Part shown: positions 5,404 through 48,592 of the stretch, one piece after another | Layout of the letters: the number at the start of each line of letters is the position of its first letter | Numbering within the stretch: the first letter of the stretch is position 1 | Source: Octopus vulgaris | Lineage: Eukaryota | Assembly: GCA_951406725.2 (NCBI GenBank) | Contig: OX597826.1 | Location: 46,934,001-46,998,000, forward strand | Direction of reading: 5' to 3' | Length of the DNA stretch: 64,000 nucleotides | Made by a program: the position numbers and the translations under genes | Notes under the pieces: model-generated | What the model was told of the DNA's origin: nothing | Seen by the model: only the letters and a program-made list of their open reading frames with translations | The model's database searches: none

Positions 5404-6315
5404 TAGATAAAACAGGGGACAACTGATGAAGGGATTGTTCTTTATGTTGCTTTTCTCATTTCTTTATTTGTTTCTTTCGTTGTCCGAAAAAAAGTTCGTT
5501 TTGAATGTTTTTGTTTTTTATGTTCTCGTTTTTCATTTTGTTCACGTTTCGTTTTTGACGTTCTGTACCCAAATATGCATGTATATATACACATATATAT
5601 ATGTAGGTATGTACAGGTATGTATATATGCTTATATATATTATTTATATTATTATATGATCGAATGCCACGCATCCTTTTCCAAGTAAGTTTTATCTTAA
5701 TTACGATGCGCACTCTACATTCTCTGTTCTCCCTTTATCACTATTCTTCTTTCTGTCTGTCTTTTTCTTCTCTCCCTTCACCGCTCACTTTGTCGCCTCC
5801 TCTCTCTCCCCCCTCTCTGTCGTTGCTAACATGTGACCAGCGGCTATCGTTCTGTTTTCCTCTAGCTTTACAAGAGATAAGACCAGCTTTTGCCTATCTC
5901 TTGTCAGAGCTCCTTTCTCCAGCGTTCACCACTTCACCTCGTTATGGCTTAACAGTCCATCACCGCTTGTTTTTAATGTTTTGTTCTTACTGACCTGTTT
6001 TTGTTACCACTTTAACACTCAGCAAAAATTCCAAATTTTATTTGATTTACTTTGCAGGAAGGACAGGTTTAACGAAGTCGCGTCTTGTCCCAATCTTCGG
6101 AACGCGGAGTAGATAAAACAAGGGACAACTGATGAAGGCATTGTTCTTTATGTTGCTTGTCTCGTTTCTCTATTTGTTTCTTTCGTTGTCCGAAAAATGT
6201 TCGTTTTCCATGTTTTGTTTTTTATATTCTCGTTTTTCATTTCACGTTTTTTTTACGTCCTGTATCCATACATTCATGTATATATACAAATACATGTAGG
6301 TATGTAAATGTATGT
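5404..6315 (+). mobile_element. Non-coding retrozyme/PLE-like repeat (family E): 706-nt unit plus about 210-nt terminal redundancy
   Basis: 5404-5618 is directly repeated at 6110-6315 (CTGATGA at 5423 and 6129). No real ORF; begins next to a TA-rich microsatellite. Relatives at 42140-42305 (-) and 45460-46000 (-). Confidence 0.75.
6078..6143 (+). ncRNA. Candidate non-circularly permuted (pseudoknotted) hammerhead ribozyme
   Basis: CGCG-UC 6079-6084; UUGUCCC 6085-6091; AAUCUUC GGAA CGCG 6092-6106; A-rich linker; GGGACAA CUGAUGA 6122-6135. Stem I 7 bp, stem III 5-6 bp, stem II weak; this copy has GGAA instead of GAAA. Confidence 0.6.
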
Positions 6316-11026: not shown

Positions 11027-11180
11027 CGGGGACGTGGAACGAGTACAGTGCTATTGGACGCTCAGGAAAGGAAAGAAAGATGGAGGATTTCACATTTCGA
11101 GCGGAGCTCTTCGTCAGAAATATAGAGAAAATCCAAAGAAGGGAAGACGGGGAAAGAAAATCGCCAACGATACACACACG
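11025..11180 (-). mobile_element. PLE terminal-repeat fragment next to (TA)n
   Basis: Shares CGCTCAGGAAA and the hammerhead layout with the PLE end at 46487-46690. A short related piece (GGACGTGGAAC) lies at about 4226-4290. Confidence 0.7.
11088..11120 (-). ncRNA. Minimal type I hammerhead motif with canonical core (decayed stem III)
   Basis: Minus strand: ttt CUGACGA A GAGC-UCC-GCUC GAA AUGU G aaa. The ACGU palindrome appears mutated to AUGU and position 17 is G. Confidence 0.65.
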
Positions 11181-11821: not shown

Positions 11822-12167
11822 GGTGTATATACATGTGTATGTGTGTGTGTGTGTGGGCGCGTCCATATATCTACACAATAACTCTCTCGCGCATATATAC
11901 CTGTTTGTTCGAATGTATATATGCGGATACACACAGGCATACTTACATAGGATAAATATGTTTGAAATTGTGGTTTCTTTGGTATGTTTGTTCCCAAACA
12001 ACACTTATTTTAGTGCTGTTGACACCGCCAAATTGAGTGGTACTGCACAGGTGTCGAAACCATAATGATATCCGTGGGGAAGCTGATGATGGAGGTATGT
12101 TGGATTATGTTCGTATGGCTGTTTCTGTAAATTATAACACATCCTTTTGATATATATATATATATAC

Positions 12168-42139: not shown

Positions 42140-42305
42140 AGAAATATATAATATATAAATATAATATATGAATATATGCATATATACATACATATATGTA
42201 CATACCTACATCTATATGTAGATATACATGCATATATGGGTACAGGACATAAAAAAAAACGTTGAACACAATGAGAAACGAAAACATAATAACAAAAACA
42301 TGGAA
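42140..42305 (-). mobile_element. Partial copy of family E
   Basis: Reverse complement matches about 5505-5660. Confidence 0.65.
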
Positions 42306-44960: not shown

Positions 44961-45392
44961 AGTGGTAACAATGGGGTATGTGGTGGTGGCTTCAACATCT
45001 ATTATTGTTTATAGATAGTTATTTATAAACTTATATATGTACGAATATATATATATGTACGAATATATATATATGTTTATGTACAGGAATATATACATAT
45101 AACACCTATATATCTACACGTACTCACACACATAATTATAAATACACACACACATACACACATCATTCAAACTTCCGACGCCACCATAATCAATACCTTT
45201 GACTTCGCTGCCCTCCCCTCCACCACCATCACCACTGTCTTTCACATCACTTACTATCATAGGCATAGGTAGATGGATAGATAAAACTTACTTGGAAGAG
45301 GTTGCGTGGTGTTCAATAATATAATAATATAAATAATATATATATATATATATATATATGCATTTATACATGCGTATATGTACACATCTATA

Positions 45393-45459
<67 letters not shown>

Positions 45460-45461
<2 letters not shown>

Positions 45462-45997
45462 ATGTGTGGGCACAGGGCATAACGAAACGTGTACTAGAAA
45501 AATATACGAAACACGAGTACATAAAATATGATGTATTTTTCCGAACAACGAAAGACACAAATGGAAAACAAGACGAACAACATAAAGAACGACCCTTCAT
45601 CAGTTGTTGGCTGTTTTTCTACTCTTGTATTTCGAGCATTTAACAATATACGCTTTTGATAAAACAGTTGCTCCCGCAAAGCAAATAATATAAAATTTGG
45701 GATTTTGTGGAGGGTCAAAATTGGCAACAAAGAGGATAGTGAAAACAAACAGGAAGGGCTACTTAGCCTAAGCGAGGTTGTGGTGGCGAACGCGTAAATC
45801 AAGCTTGGACAGGAGACAGAAAAGAACACGTCTTCCTTGTTCCAGCTACAACGGAGGGAAAGAAGGAAACACAAATTAGGAGAAGGAAGAAAGATGGCTG
45901 ATGGTCACGTGGGATTCATGTGAGCAAGGGTGCAGGAGGGGGAGAGAGTGACAGAGTAATTCCTAATTTTATTTAATTTGCTTTGCGGGAGCAACTG

Positions 45998-46000
<3 letters not shown>
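45460..46000 (-). mobile_element. Divergent family E copy with inverted 5' piece, flanked by (TA)n on both sides
   Basis: Colinear by eye with 5830-6270. 45960-45999 is an inverted duplicate of 45663-45701, a structure typical of PLE insertions. Confidence 0.75.
45590..45652 (-). ncRNA. Second candidate non-circularly permuted hammerhead
   Basis: Minus strand: GUA-UA UUGUU aaau GCUC GAAA UAC, A-rich linker, AACAA CUGAUGA A GGGU. All core nucleotides are intact. Confidence 0.65.
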
Positions 46001-46038
<38 letters not shown>

Positions 46039-46585: not shown

Positions 46586-46623
46586 TCTTTAACGTTTCGA
46601 GCCTACGCTCTTCAACAGAAAGA
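46586..46623 (-). ncRNA. Minimal hammerhead with A6U core variant at the PLE 3' end
   Basis: Minus strand: ucuuu CUGUUGA A GAGC-GUAG-GCUC GAA ACGU U aaaga. Confidence 0.7.
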
Positions 46624-47157
46624 TACACAGAGAGAGAAAAACACAGAAAGAAGGAGAGAAAAAAATGCGTGCAGTAGCTAACGAATCAACATGGCGATCT
46701 GATTTCGGCCAGAGGTCAAAGATCAAACATGAGACGCGAGAGCGAAATAAGGGGAGATAATAGGGTTGATAAAAGGGTTGAGGGACCAGCTAATAGTGCG
46801 TGGGAGGGGTCTGGATGTGTGTATGTATAGGGTTGGTGTATGTATTAGTATGTATAAGGGTGTGTGTGTGTGTGTGTGTGTGTATGAGAGTATTAGTGCG
46901 TAGGATTGGTCTGGACGTGCGTATGTATGTGGTTGGTGTATGTATTAGTATGTATTAGTATGTATTAGTACGTATTGGTATGTATAGGTGTGTGTGTGTG
47001 TGTGTGTGAGAGAGTATAAGTGCGTATGCGGGGTCTGGACGTGTGTATGTATAGGGTTGGTGTATTAGTATGTACTAGTATGTATTAGTACATATTAGTA
47101 TGTATTAGTTGGTGTGTGTATTAGTATGGCACATCATATGTGATGTGATGTGTAAAG

Positions 47158-48335
47158 TCATGTGGTGTAGTGAGGAGAAGAGGGGGAGGGGGAGAAGAGG
47201 GGGGAAGGGGAGGGGAAGAAGAGGGGGGGAGAAGGGGGAAGAGGAGAGGATGGGGGAGAAGGAAGGGGAGGAGGGGGATGAAGGAGGAAAGAGGGAGAGG
47301 GGGAGAGAGAAGGGGAGAGAGGGAGCAGAGGGAAGGGGAAGAGGGAGGGAGAAAGAGGGAAGAAGGGAAGGGGAGTAGGGGTGGAAGGATGAAGGACTGA
47401 AGAAGTAGGGGTCGGGGGAGAAAGGATAGGTGAGGAGAGGGGGGTTAGATGAGGAGGGGGAGAGTTGAGACCAAATGGCGTATAAGAGCGAAGAGAGAAG
47501 ATTAATTCCTGTTCACGGCGCAAACGGGAATCCGGATGGCCTCTGTGTAAGGACAAACCGAACACAGATAGGTGTTGCAAGGAGTGACCGGTGGAGCGGA
47601 AATGGCGTGAGACCGGTGTGTCGTTCGCAAGGTGAATGTCACGAAGGTGTTCCGCGAACCGGTCAGCCAAGCGGCGTCCCGTTTGTCCGATGTACAAGGA
47701 ATTGCAGAGAGAGCAAGAGATGCAATAGATAATATTGCTGGAGGTGCAGGTGAAGGAGTGGATGATGGGATAGGGTCGATGGTGGGTGCTAGTGAGGCGG
47801 GTGGTGTTGGAGAGGTAAGGGCAAGTGCGGCAACGTGGGCGGGAGCAGGGGAACGAGCCGGGTTGGGAGGTAGGGTCAGGGAAGGAGCTATGGACCAAAA
47901 GGTCTCGAAGGTTGTGGGCTCGTTTGAAAGAGGGGAGGGGTCGGTTAGGGAAGAGGTGTGAAGTGGACGGGTCGGACTGGAGATGACGGAAAGCTCGAAG
48001 AATGGTGCGTTGGAGACGTAGGGTCGTGGGGTGGTAAGTGAGGGGAAAAGGGAGGCGGGAGACTACAGGGCGGGTTCGGGGAGAGAGAGCAGATACACGG
48101 TCCACGGACCGTGCTCTGGCAAGGGCGGTGTGGATAGTGGTGAGGGGGTATCCACGTAGGGTGAAGTGGTGAGCCATACGTTGAGACTGAGTCTCAAAGT
48201 CATGGTCGTCACTACAGAGCCTACGTAGACGGAGGAATTGGGAATAGGGGATGGAAAGCTTGGTGTGTTCTGGGTGGGAGGAAGAGAAGTTGAGGTATGA
48301 GTGTGAGTCTGTGTGTTTGTAGTGAATGGAGGTGG
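47158..48335 (-). CDS. PLE ORF C-terminal part: RT thumb, Zn-knuckle linker, GIY-YIG endonuclease (5'-truncated)
   Basis: YKHTDSHSYLNFSSSHP, SIPYSQFLRLRRLCS, RGYP, PCSRPRCRTC, NIIYCISCSLCNSLYIGQTGRRLADRFAEH, VSRHF, PFGLN. No stop or frameshift; the first 45 or so residues of the ORF-track call are flanking read-through. Confidence 0.9.
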
Positions 48336-48592
48336 TATATATATATACAGGCTTAGAATGTAAGTACTGGCCGCAGTCAAATGACCAAAAGAGATAAAAG
48401 AAACACACACACACACACATATATATAAGCACAGGAGTGGCTGTGTGGTAATCAGCTTGCTTCCAAACCACATGGTTCCGAGTTCAATTCCACTGCTTGG
48501 CACCTTAGGCAAGTGTCTTCTACTATATAGTCTCGGACCGACCAAAGACTTGTGAGTGGACCTGATAGATGGAAACTGAAAGAAGCCCATCG

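What the first reader, a model, noticed from the sequence alone, without database searches (positions are those of the whole stretch)
45590..45652. Divergent second copy gives compensatory changes for the permuted hammerhead
The minus strand reads GUA-UA UUGUU AAAU GCUC GAAA UAC (17-nt A-rich linker) AACAA CUGAUGA A GGGU. Compared with 6078-6143, stem III changes from GCG/CGC to GUA/UAC (two pairs swapped on both strands), stem I from UUGUC/GACAA to UUGUU/AACAA, and the triplet from GUC to AUA (still NUH). CUGAUGA and the AGUAGA-AAAACA linker are kept. Stem II GGGU/GCUC is a wobble version of the GAGC/GCUC stem of the ordinary PLE hammerheads in this window, including the extra A after the core. 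Three double substitutions that keep pairing are unlikely under neutral decay, though two copies are a small sample.
Basis: seen in the sequence. Interest (0 to 1): 0.85.

Follow-up and report, generated by a model that had tools for sequence, protein, structure and literature searches.

The report
Split, reverse-order hammerhead in Naiad retroelements
This is a decayed copy of a repeat, present in thousands of copies, whose RNA is predicted to fold into a self-cutting hammerhead ribozyme with its parts in reversed order and its core strand split by two extra helices, likely the ribozyme that Naiad-type Penelope retrotransposons were thought to lack.

Summary
Cleavage strand, GAAA strand and CUGAUGA strand lie in non-circular S-G-C order. 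Stems I and III covary across 8 subfamilies in this genome (25 copies: 92% paired, 15 of 25 pairs doubly changed). Two further helices (Z, Y) sit between A9 and G10.1, splitting a block that Eckert 2023 assumed indivisible. The carrier is a non-coding, (TA)n-flanked, partly tandem repeat of 0.6-1.3 kb. A second family with the same layout (window 11990-12100) lies downstream of reverse-transcriptase remnants and matches a published octopus Naiad 3' end. Read by eye, 18 of 37 published Naiad 3' ends carry reverse-order hammerheads (8 split, 7 CSG, 3 SGC), although Naiads were reported to lack canonical hammerheads. Copy 5' ends pile up just after the predicted cut in subfamilies J/G (24 versus 2) but not in this subfamily (10 versus 8). 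Cleavage is untested, dimer docking is inferred, and no ORF was linked to this subfamily. Verdict: new variant of a known kind, high interest.

The parts
45711..45716 (-). Helix Z, 5' strand (GACCCU); pairs with 45591-45596
   Evidence: helix 88% paired; length co-varies between subfamilies
45674..45710 (-). Hairpin Y, abutting Z and the stem II 5' strand with 0 nt between
   Evidence: 3 of 4 pairs doubly changed; one mismatch in this copy
45669..45673 (-). Stem II 5' strand GAGCA (G10.1 = 45673), detached from CUGAUGA
   Evidence: GAGCA/UGCUC versus GAAGG/CCUUC; GAACG/CGUUC in a few copies
45653..45667 (-). Helix P0 5' strand (CUGUUUU) and internal-loop strand (GAA in the subfamily, CAA in this copy)
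   Evidence: CUGUUU/AAACAG, CUGUCU/AGACAG, GUUUC/GAAAC
45642..45652 (-). Block S: stem III 3' strand CGUA, U16.1-A17, predicted cut 3' of 45647, stem I 3' strand UUGUU
   Evidence: triplets AUA, GUC, GUA, AUC across subfamilies, never NUG
45626..45638 (-). Block G: stem II 3' strand UGCUC, GAAA, stem III 5' strand
45611..45625 (-).
   Evidence: loop E / sarcin-ricin likeness is a recalled label
45591..45609 (-). Block C, first part: stem I 5' strand, CUGAUGA, then Z 3' strand AGGGUC
   Evidence: position 7 is U or A across subfamilies
45275..45957 (-). Approximate extent of the non-coding subfamily-B element: C/T-rich part, motif, (TA)n, start of a next unit
45958..46003 (+). Inverted 46-nt piece of the same element at its 5' end, a Penelope-type feature
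5404..6315 (+). Subfamily-A element as partial tandem (cores at 5423 and 6129, 706 nt apart); full motif about 6009-6147, cut 3' of 6084, GAAA decayed to GGAA
11990..12100 (+). Second family with the same split layout and unrelated stem sequences; matches by eye the published Naiad_Ovul / Naiad_Obim 3' end

Best explanation
The locus is a decayed copy of a non-coding Penelope-type repeat that carries all hammerhead core nucleotides in reversed (non-circular) block order, is predicted to self-cleave 3' of A45647 in intact copies, and likely does so when the terminal loop of one repeat unit docks into the helix junction of another. Shown by sequence: each unit can fold without knots as Z closing hairpin Y and a rod P0-loop-III. 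The rod's terminal loop holds UH, the stem I 3' strand, the stem II 3' strand and GAAA. The junction at the rod's base displays the stem II 5' strand and the stem I 5' strand with CUGAnGA. Inferred: Z and Y stack at a nick and hold A9 beside G10.1 in place of the usual covalent link; docking forms stems I and II and so the active site; because loop and junction sit at opposite ends of a rod of about 19 bp-equivalents, docking likely occurs between units of a tandem transcript or between two RNAs. Cutting would release unit-length RNA that a Naiad reverse transcriptase/endonuclease would copy into (TA)n sites.
For: Covariation in all five helices counted on 25 copies of 8 subfamilies: 92.4% paired versus 39-44% for slid partners; 15 of 25 pairs doubly changed. 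P0 covaries by subfamily listing. Core invariant except position 7; H17 never G. The same split layout with unrelated sequences in window 11990-12100 and, by eye, in 8 published Naiad 3' ends (two octopus, squid, ostracod, acanthocephalan, coral, hydrozoan, box jelly), where the bases after CUGAnGA cannot pair with the strand before GAAA. Ten more Naiads carry intact-block reverse orders (7 CSG, 3 SGC). Reverse-order hammerheads SGC and CSG cleave in vitro (PMC10085705). 5' junctions in J/G copies: 24 at 0..+30 versus 2 at -31..-1 of 64 copies, p=2.5e-4. The Ovul-type motif follows RT remnants on the same strand in 9 of 30 top RT loci within 1.5 kb. Tandem units, three identical 832-bp units in L171. 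Ordinary PLE hammerheads carry an extra base between 9 and 10.1 and are thought to act as dimers (PMC4209133). Own estimate: hammerhead identity about 0.85, dimer step about 0.65.
Against: No cleavage data. The junction test did not replicate in the finding's own subfamily B: 10 at 0..+30 versus 8 at -31..-1 of 71 copies, p=0.6, only a two-sided excess at -15..+15. Stalls of reverse transcriptase at structure could also cause such piles. In subfamily D (3 copies) position 10.1 is U, so the upstream strand loses its first pair. Z has little true covariation inside this genome (1 of 5 pairs; broken in 8 of 25 copies at that pair), and related copies inflate the counts. Single-strand folding is only mildly better than shuffles (z -0.03 to -1.55 on 8 sequences) and often picks other folds. 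No ORF was found joined to subfamilies A-K. No split-core hammerhead has been shown to cleave in the papers I could read. The Naiad survey is by eye, on the last ~600 nt, with names inferred from file order; 15 of 37 showed nothing and 3 were unresolved. The geometry argument rests on recalled dimensions, not on a model.
Confidence: 0.6

Rival explanations
1. Same helices and same split core, but each unit folds and cleaves alone: P0 folds back along the core and the two 7-8 nt strands act as flexible linkers, as proposed for metatranscriptome type-SGC RNAs.
For: Type-SGC RNAs with 0-44 nt between helix 'I' and stem III cleave co-transcriptionally (PMC10085705). Many genomic copies are single units.
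Against: The two strands keep a GAA/AGUA motif with a flanking C-G pair, which suggests a paired, roughly straight loop (motif label recalled). In several Naiads P0 and III are joined by 0-1 nt on one strand, and by eye their summed length clusters near 12-14 or 21-23 bp, about one helical turn apart (small, post hoc count).
Confidence: 0.2
2. One reading: a contiguous type-SGC hammerhead with stem II made by GGGU after CUGAUGA-A; the upstream strand and Z then form an off-state that must switch.
For: The four pairs are 90% paired with G-C at 10.1/11.1 in 24 of 25 copies. Subfamily D lacks G at the upstream 10.1 position. A hybrid in which the first pair comes from block C is possible.
Against: Changes in the strand before GAAA are tracked by the upstream strand, not by AGGG. 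In the 8 split Naiads read by eye the bases after the core match Z and not that strand.
Confidence: 0.08
3. A hammerhead-derived but non-catalytic RNA structure kept for binding the element's protein or for marking where reverse transcription ends.
For: In a Poseidon PLE, hammerhead mutants did not affect insertion in vitro and no RNA-seq reads ended at the cut (PMC11167929 passages). Subfamily B junctions fall on both sides of the site.
Against: Catalytic positions are invariant while all stems turn over; position 7 and H17 vary just as hammerhead rules allow; one spider Naiad shows the U3-A8 core covariation (described in PMC4209133). Sharp edge at the cut in J/G copies.
Confidence: 0.1
4. 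Chance complementarity, or template switching between inverted repeats, in a neutrally decaying repeat.
For: Inversions through the stem I homology occur (L062, L096, L097). Individual copies decay freely.
Against: Six interleaved short helices change in concert between subfamilies around a fixed core, and the layout recurs across phyla with unrelated sequence.
Confidence: 0.02

Closest known systems
Type-SGC (HRIMA-1) and type-CSG hammerheads, Eckert et al. 2023 (PMC10085705)
   Same: Same reversed cyclic order of blocks; short link from the stem I 3' strand to the stem II 3' strand; a helix joining the far ends of stems I and II (their 'I', here P0); full core.
   Different: [quoted passage not shown] Here the chain is opened inside block C, with helices Z and Y between A9 and G10.1, both P0 strands connect to stem III, and it sits in an animal retroelement at thousands of copies.
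Naiad clade of Penelope-like elements, Craig et al. 2021 (PMC8557442)
   Same: (TA)n insertion preference, tandem and inverted 5' structure; the window's second family matches the octopus Naiad 3' end; their unexplained 'HHR_core / HHR_half_core' labels fall on these motifs.
   Different: The paper reports that Naiads lack canonical hammerheads and gives no fold. The finding's subfamily has no ORF and shares only the layout, not stem sequence, with Naiad_Ovul.
Minimal type-I hammerheads of other PLEs (PMC4209133) and non-LTR retrozymes (bioRxiv 10.64898/2026.07.22.740005)
   Same: Position near the element's 3' end, tandem non-coding units, likely dimer action, tolerance at position 9/10.1.
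   Different: Those have canonical C-G-S order and a tiny palindromic stem III; this has reversed order, 3-5 bp stem III on a long rod, and three extra helices.

Membership tests
Hammerhead ribozyme | CUGAnGA, GAAA and NUH core nucleotides | tested here: met
   invariant over 8 subfamily consensuses; n = U/A; H = A/C
Hammerhead ribozyme | Stems I and III in core register with covariation | tested here: met
   4 of 6 and 4 of 5 pairs doubly changed
Hammerhead ribozyme | Stem II with G10.1-C11.1 | tested here: met
   G-C in 22 of 25 copies using the upstream strand; U at 10.1 in subfamily D
Hammerhead ribozyme | Site-specific self-cleavage after H17 | not testable with these tools
   indirect junction test positive in J/G, negative in B
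Type-SGC hammerhead (Eckert 2023) | Block order S, G, C | tested here: met
Type-SGC hammerhead (Eckert 2023) | Helix joining the free far ends of stems I and II; short I-to-II linker | tested here: met
   P0 and a linker of a few nt in each subfamily
Type-SGC hammerhead (Eckert 2023) | Block C uninterrupted (stem II 5' strand directly after CUGAnGA) | tested here: not met
   versus 80; not filed as a strict type-SGC member
Type-I minimal PLE hammerhead / non-LTR retrozyme | Canonical C-G-S order (type I) | tested here: not met
   no GAAA-stem-UH set after the core; the GUC-UUGUU downstream in B does not keep pairing in A or C; Rfam has no hit at 45480-45960
Type-I minimal PLE hammerhead / non-LTR retrozyme | Non-coding tandem units each with a ribozyme | tested here: met
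   12 same-strand pairs spaced 589-1273 nt; three identical 832-bp units in L171
Type-I minimal PLE hammerhead / non-LTR retrozyme | Circular RNA products | not testable with these tools
   only contigs were available
Naiad PLE | ORF with N-terminal GIY-YIG and C-terminal RT joined to the element | tested here: inconclusive
   none joined to subfamilies A-K in the loci screened; RT remnants lie upstream of the 11990-12100 family in 9 of 30 loci; N-terminal endonuclease not examined in G000
Naiad PLE | (TA)n targets, partial tandems, inverted 5' pieces | tested here: met

The most novel reading that the evidence does not exclude
A large part of the Naiad clade, from cnidarians to nematodes, arthropods and cephalopods, and their non-coding derivatives, use non-circularly permuted hammerheads in three openings (CSG, SGC with an inserted domain, and a new split-core form in which two stacked helices replace the A9-G10.1 link), built as rods that can only cleave as head-to-tail dimers. 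Reverse-order hammerheads would then be among the most numerous ribozymes in many invertebrate genomes.
Probability: 0.55. Interest if true: 0.93.

Novelty: new variant of a known kind. Interest (0 to 1): 0.86.

Why it matters
It would move non-circularly permuted RNAs from unknown metatranscriptome contigs into animal genomes, at thousands of copies, with a defined host element. It would add a hammerhead topology that the six-permutation scheme excludes, showing that the catalytic core tolerates a five-way junction. It would explain the stated exception that Naiads lack hammerheads and the unexplained 'half core' notes, restoring a ribozyme as a near-general feature of Penelope-like elements. 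It is directly testable with RNAs of about 130 nt, and gives a simple descriptor for finding Naiad ends and Naiad-dependent retrozymes.

Tried and rejected
Rfam: whole-window scan listed only microsatellite look-alikes among the 150 shown of 508; none at the locus. Folding the window copies alone gave no signal (z 0.08 and -0.82). A canonical type-I reading using the downstream GUC-UUGUU was rejected: no GAAA and no covariation. The GIY-YIG ORF at 47158-48483 has its own ordinary hammerhead at about 46590-46625 and had no tblastn hit in 60 oriented loci, so it is not taken as the partner. The young intact 753-aa RT/GIY-YIG family had no such motif at its 3' end in 5 loci; one family copy lies 1.4 kb past the RT match in L442, not examined further. 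Splicing as the way to join CUGAUGA to the upstream strand was considered and dropped: no conserved donor/acceptor there. Metagenome pattern scan: 0 of 119 loci passed the pairing descriptor; the scan covered 24 of 64 parts. Sequencing runs: no RNA holder listed; 4 runs laid were contigs and showed no ends or joints of use. The first junction table was set aside as biased because its patterns began at GAAA. Earlier findings of this scan: none.

Full report
OBSERVATION. The window lies in G000, 2.8 Gb in 227 contigs. I infer an octopus from the match of window 11990-12130 to published octopus Naiad ends. The two copies belong to subfamilies with 3544 and 5103 first-look candidates, of which 40 each were scored. 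Patterns for GAAA...AGUA...CUGAnGA give 2525 hits versus 0 in the reversed control and 4384 versus 66. The order is cleavage strand, GAAA strand, CUGAnGA strand. That is the reverse of the cyclic order of types I-III, and is called S-G-C in Eckert et al. 2023 (PMC10085705; I read parts 1-6 of 8, the whole main text, not the supplements).

ANATOMY. From 137 full-motif copies, 8 clusters of 3 or more (120 copies) were parsed. Stem III reads CGUA/UACG, CGCG/CGCG, CUCA/UGAG, UGCG/CGCA, CAUG/CGUG, ACG/CGU. Stem I reads UUGUUG/CAACAA, UUGUCCC/GGGACAA, UUGUCG/CGACAA, UCGCCUU/AAGGCGA, UCGCU/AGCGA. The triplet is AUA, GUC, GUA or AUC; the core is CUGAUGA or CUGAAGA. First, the strand before GAAA tracks a strand about 25 nt upstream of the cut (GAGCA/UGCUC, GAAGG/CCUUC, in a few copies GAACG/CGUUC). 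Second, the 'linker' pairs with an upstream strand as helix P0, joined to stem III by a loop with conserved GAA and AGUA; its likeness to a loop E / sarcin-ricin motif is recalled, not tested. Third, AGGG after the core pairs with an upstream CCCU (helix Z), followed with no gap by hairpin Y, followed with no gap by the stem II 5' strand. So Z and Y stand between A9 and G10.1. On 25 real copies (23 chosen as closest to their consensus plus the two window copies) the five helices Z, Y, II, III, I are 92.4% paired against 39-44% when slid, with 15 of 25 pairs doubly changed; P0 was left out of that count because the alignment is out of register there. The tool warns that related sequences inflate such counts. 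Single-strand folding recovers Y in 6 of 8 sequences and Z in 5 of 8, with z only -0.03 to -1.55.

CARRIER. The element is non-coding, flanked by (TA)n, often 5'-truncated or with an inverted 5' piece. Twelve same-strand pairs lie 589-1273 nt apart, and L171 holds three identical 832-bp units. Subfamily B copies differ by about 10%, subfamily K by 2.5%. The window copy is decayed. No ORF was found joined to subfamilies A-K.

LINK TO NAIADS. Craig et al. 2021 (PMC8557442; passages; supplement File S1 part 1 and passages of S4/S5) report that Naiad PLEs prefer (TA)n, lack canonical hammerheads, and in 8 cases have a 'half core' with the other half 35-50 nt away on either side. The octopus Naiad 3' end has the same split layout with unrelated stems. 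That family is in this window (11990-12100; 1764 candidates) and follows RT remnants on the same strand in 9 of 30 top RT loci within 1.5 kb and 3 of 20 further loci. I read the last ~600 nt of 37 of 54 Naiad consensuses by eye; names follow from file order. Clear reverse-order hammerheads: 18. Split form in Obim, Ovul, Esco, 4_Dst, Plae, Amil, 3_Chem, 2_Movir; CSG in Smim, Parc, 1-3_Nbra, Hpol, Hcon; SGC with an inserted domain in Ppla, Lpol, Sdum (the last with the U3-A8 core). Partial: Bfor (2-bp stem I). Unresolved: 1-3_Dst. None seen: 15 (Omin, Adux, Tama are marked incomplete; also CGi, Mcor, Tgra, Scon, Asuum, Ppac, 1_, 2_, 4_Chem, 1_Movir, 1_Skow, 1_Pfla). No shuffled control was possible for this reading. 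The tie of subfamily B itself to Naiads is by layout and target, and is inferred.

CLEAVAGE EVIDENCE. If the template RNA starts at the cut, 5' junctions of copies should pile just after it. With copies picked by a pattern 73 nt downstream (64 copies from 70 stretches, of 1007 hits), 24 fell at 0..+30 and 2 at -31..-1 (p=2.5e-4). The same test on subfamily B (71 copies from 70 stretches, of 471 hits) gave 10 and 8 (p=0.6), with an excess on both sides at -15..+15. The evidence is therefore mixed, and stalling at structure is a live alternative. RNA data gave nothing usable.

MECHANISM. Shown: a knot-free ground fold Z(Y, P0-loop-III) whose terminal loop is complementary to the two single strands of its basal junction. 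Inferred: docking makes stems I and II; Z/Y stacking holds A9 next to G10.1, a position where PLE hammerheads already carry an extra base (PMC4209133, parts 1-2 of 4). A straight rod of about 19 bp-equivalents is longer than the roughly 25 A (recalled) between core and far junction, and in several Naiads P0 and III abut with 0-1 nt, with summed lengths near 12-14 or 21-23 bp by eye. I therefore favour docking between two units. PLE hammerheads are already thought to work as dimers. The products would be unit-length, possibly circular, templates for a Naiad RT. In one Poseidon PLE cleavage was not needed for insertion in vitro (PMC11167929 passages), so the biological role stays open.

NOVELTY. 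Eight full-text searches found no report of non-circularly permuted hammerheads in animal genomes or Naiads, nor of helices between A9 and G10.1; the library lacks most subscription papers. A 2026 paper still cites only Eckert 2023 and two others for 'additional helices or alternative permutations' (PMC13725137 passages). Of these, PMC10162972 passages showed nothing relevant and Weinberg 2015 was not held; I recall a hairpin inserted elsewhere in the core there, unverified. A 2026 retrozyme preprint used type-I models only (passages). The Eckert supplements, not read, could hold related sequences. It works like a hammerhead and shares the SGC/CSG cyclic class, but fails the uninterrupted-block-C feature, so I file it as a new variant. 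Interest 0.86.

Noticed in passing
Craig 2021 File S5, 3' ends of 1_Chem, 2_Chem, CGi, Tgra, 1_Skow, 1_Pfla: Naiads without the reverse hammerhead share another structured motif beginning GACGGGTG or GGCGGGTG and mostly ending CACCTG. By position it is a candidate for a different self-cleaving RNA; not identified.
   Followed up: no
Craig 2021 File S5, 3' ends of 1_Movir and 4_Chem: A motif that looks like a twister ribozyme (recalled likeness) stands where other Naiads have the hammerhead.
   Followed up: no
window 47158-48483 (-) and about 46590-46625 (-); also about 11090-11125 (-): GIY-YIG C-terminal PLE remnant (Pfam E 0.0023) with an ordinary type-I hammerhead whose core reads CUGUUGA; a second ordinary one near 11117.
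   Followed up: partly
L440, L443, L444 and further places listed: A young PLE family with open 750-780 aa RT plus C-terminal GIY-YIG frames, many near-identical copies; no hammerhead found by my descriptor after the ORF in L440, L441, L444.
   Followed up: partly
window about 45290-45300 (-) and 5680-5690 (+); about 45845 (-): A conserved AAGTAAGT donor-like site and a pyrimidine tract with an AG acceptor-like site in the unit suggest the intron typical of PLE 5' regions.
   Followed up: no
L062, L096, L097, L161: 5' inversions whose junctions lie within the motif, some through the stem I complementarity, giving near-perfect palindromes.
   Followed up: no
The young subfamily K unit is held by runs of three coded organisms (A, B, C), so it spans related species.
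   Followed up: partly
window 42146-42305 (-): A further truncated piece of the subfamily-A unit without the core.
   Followed up: no
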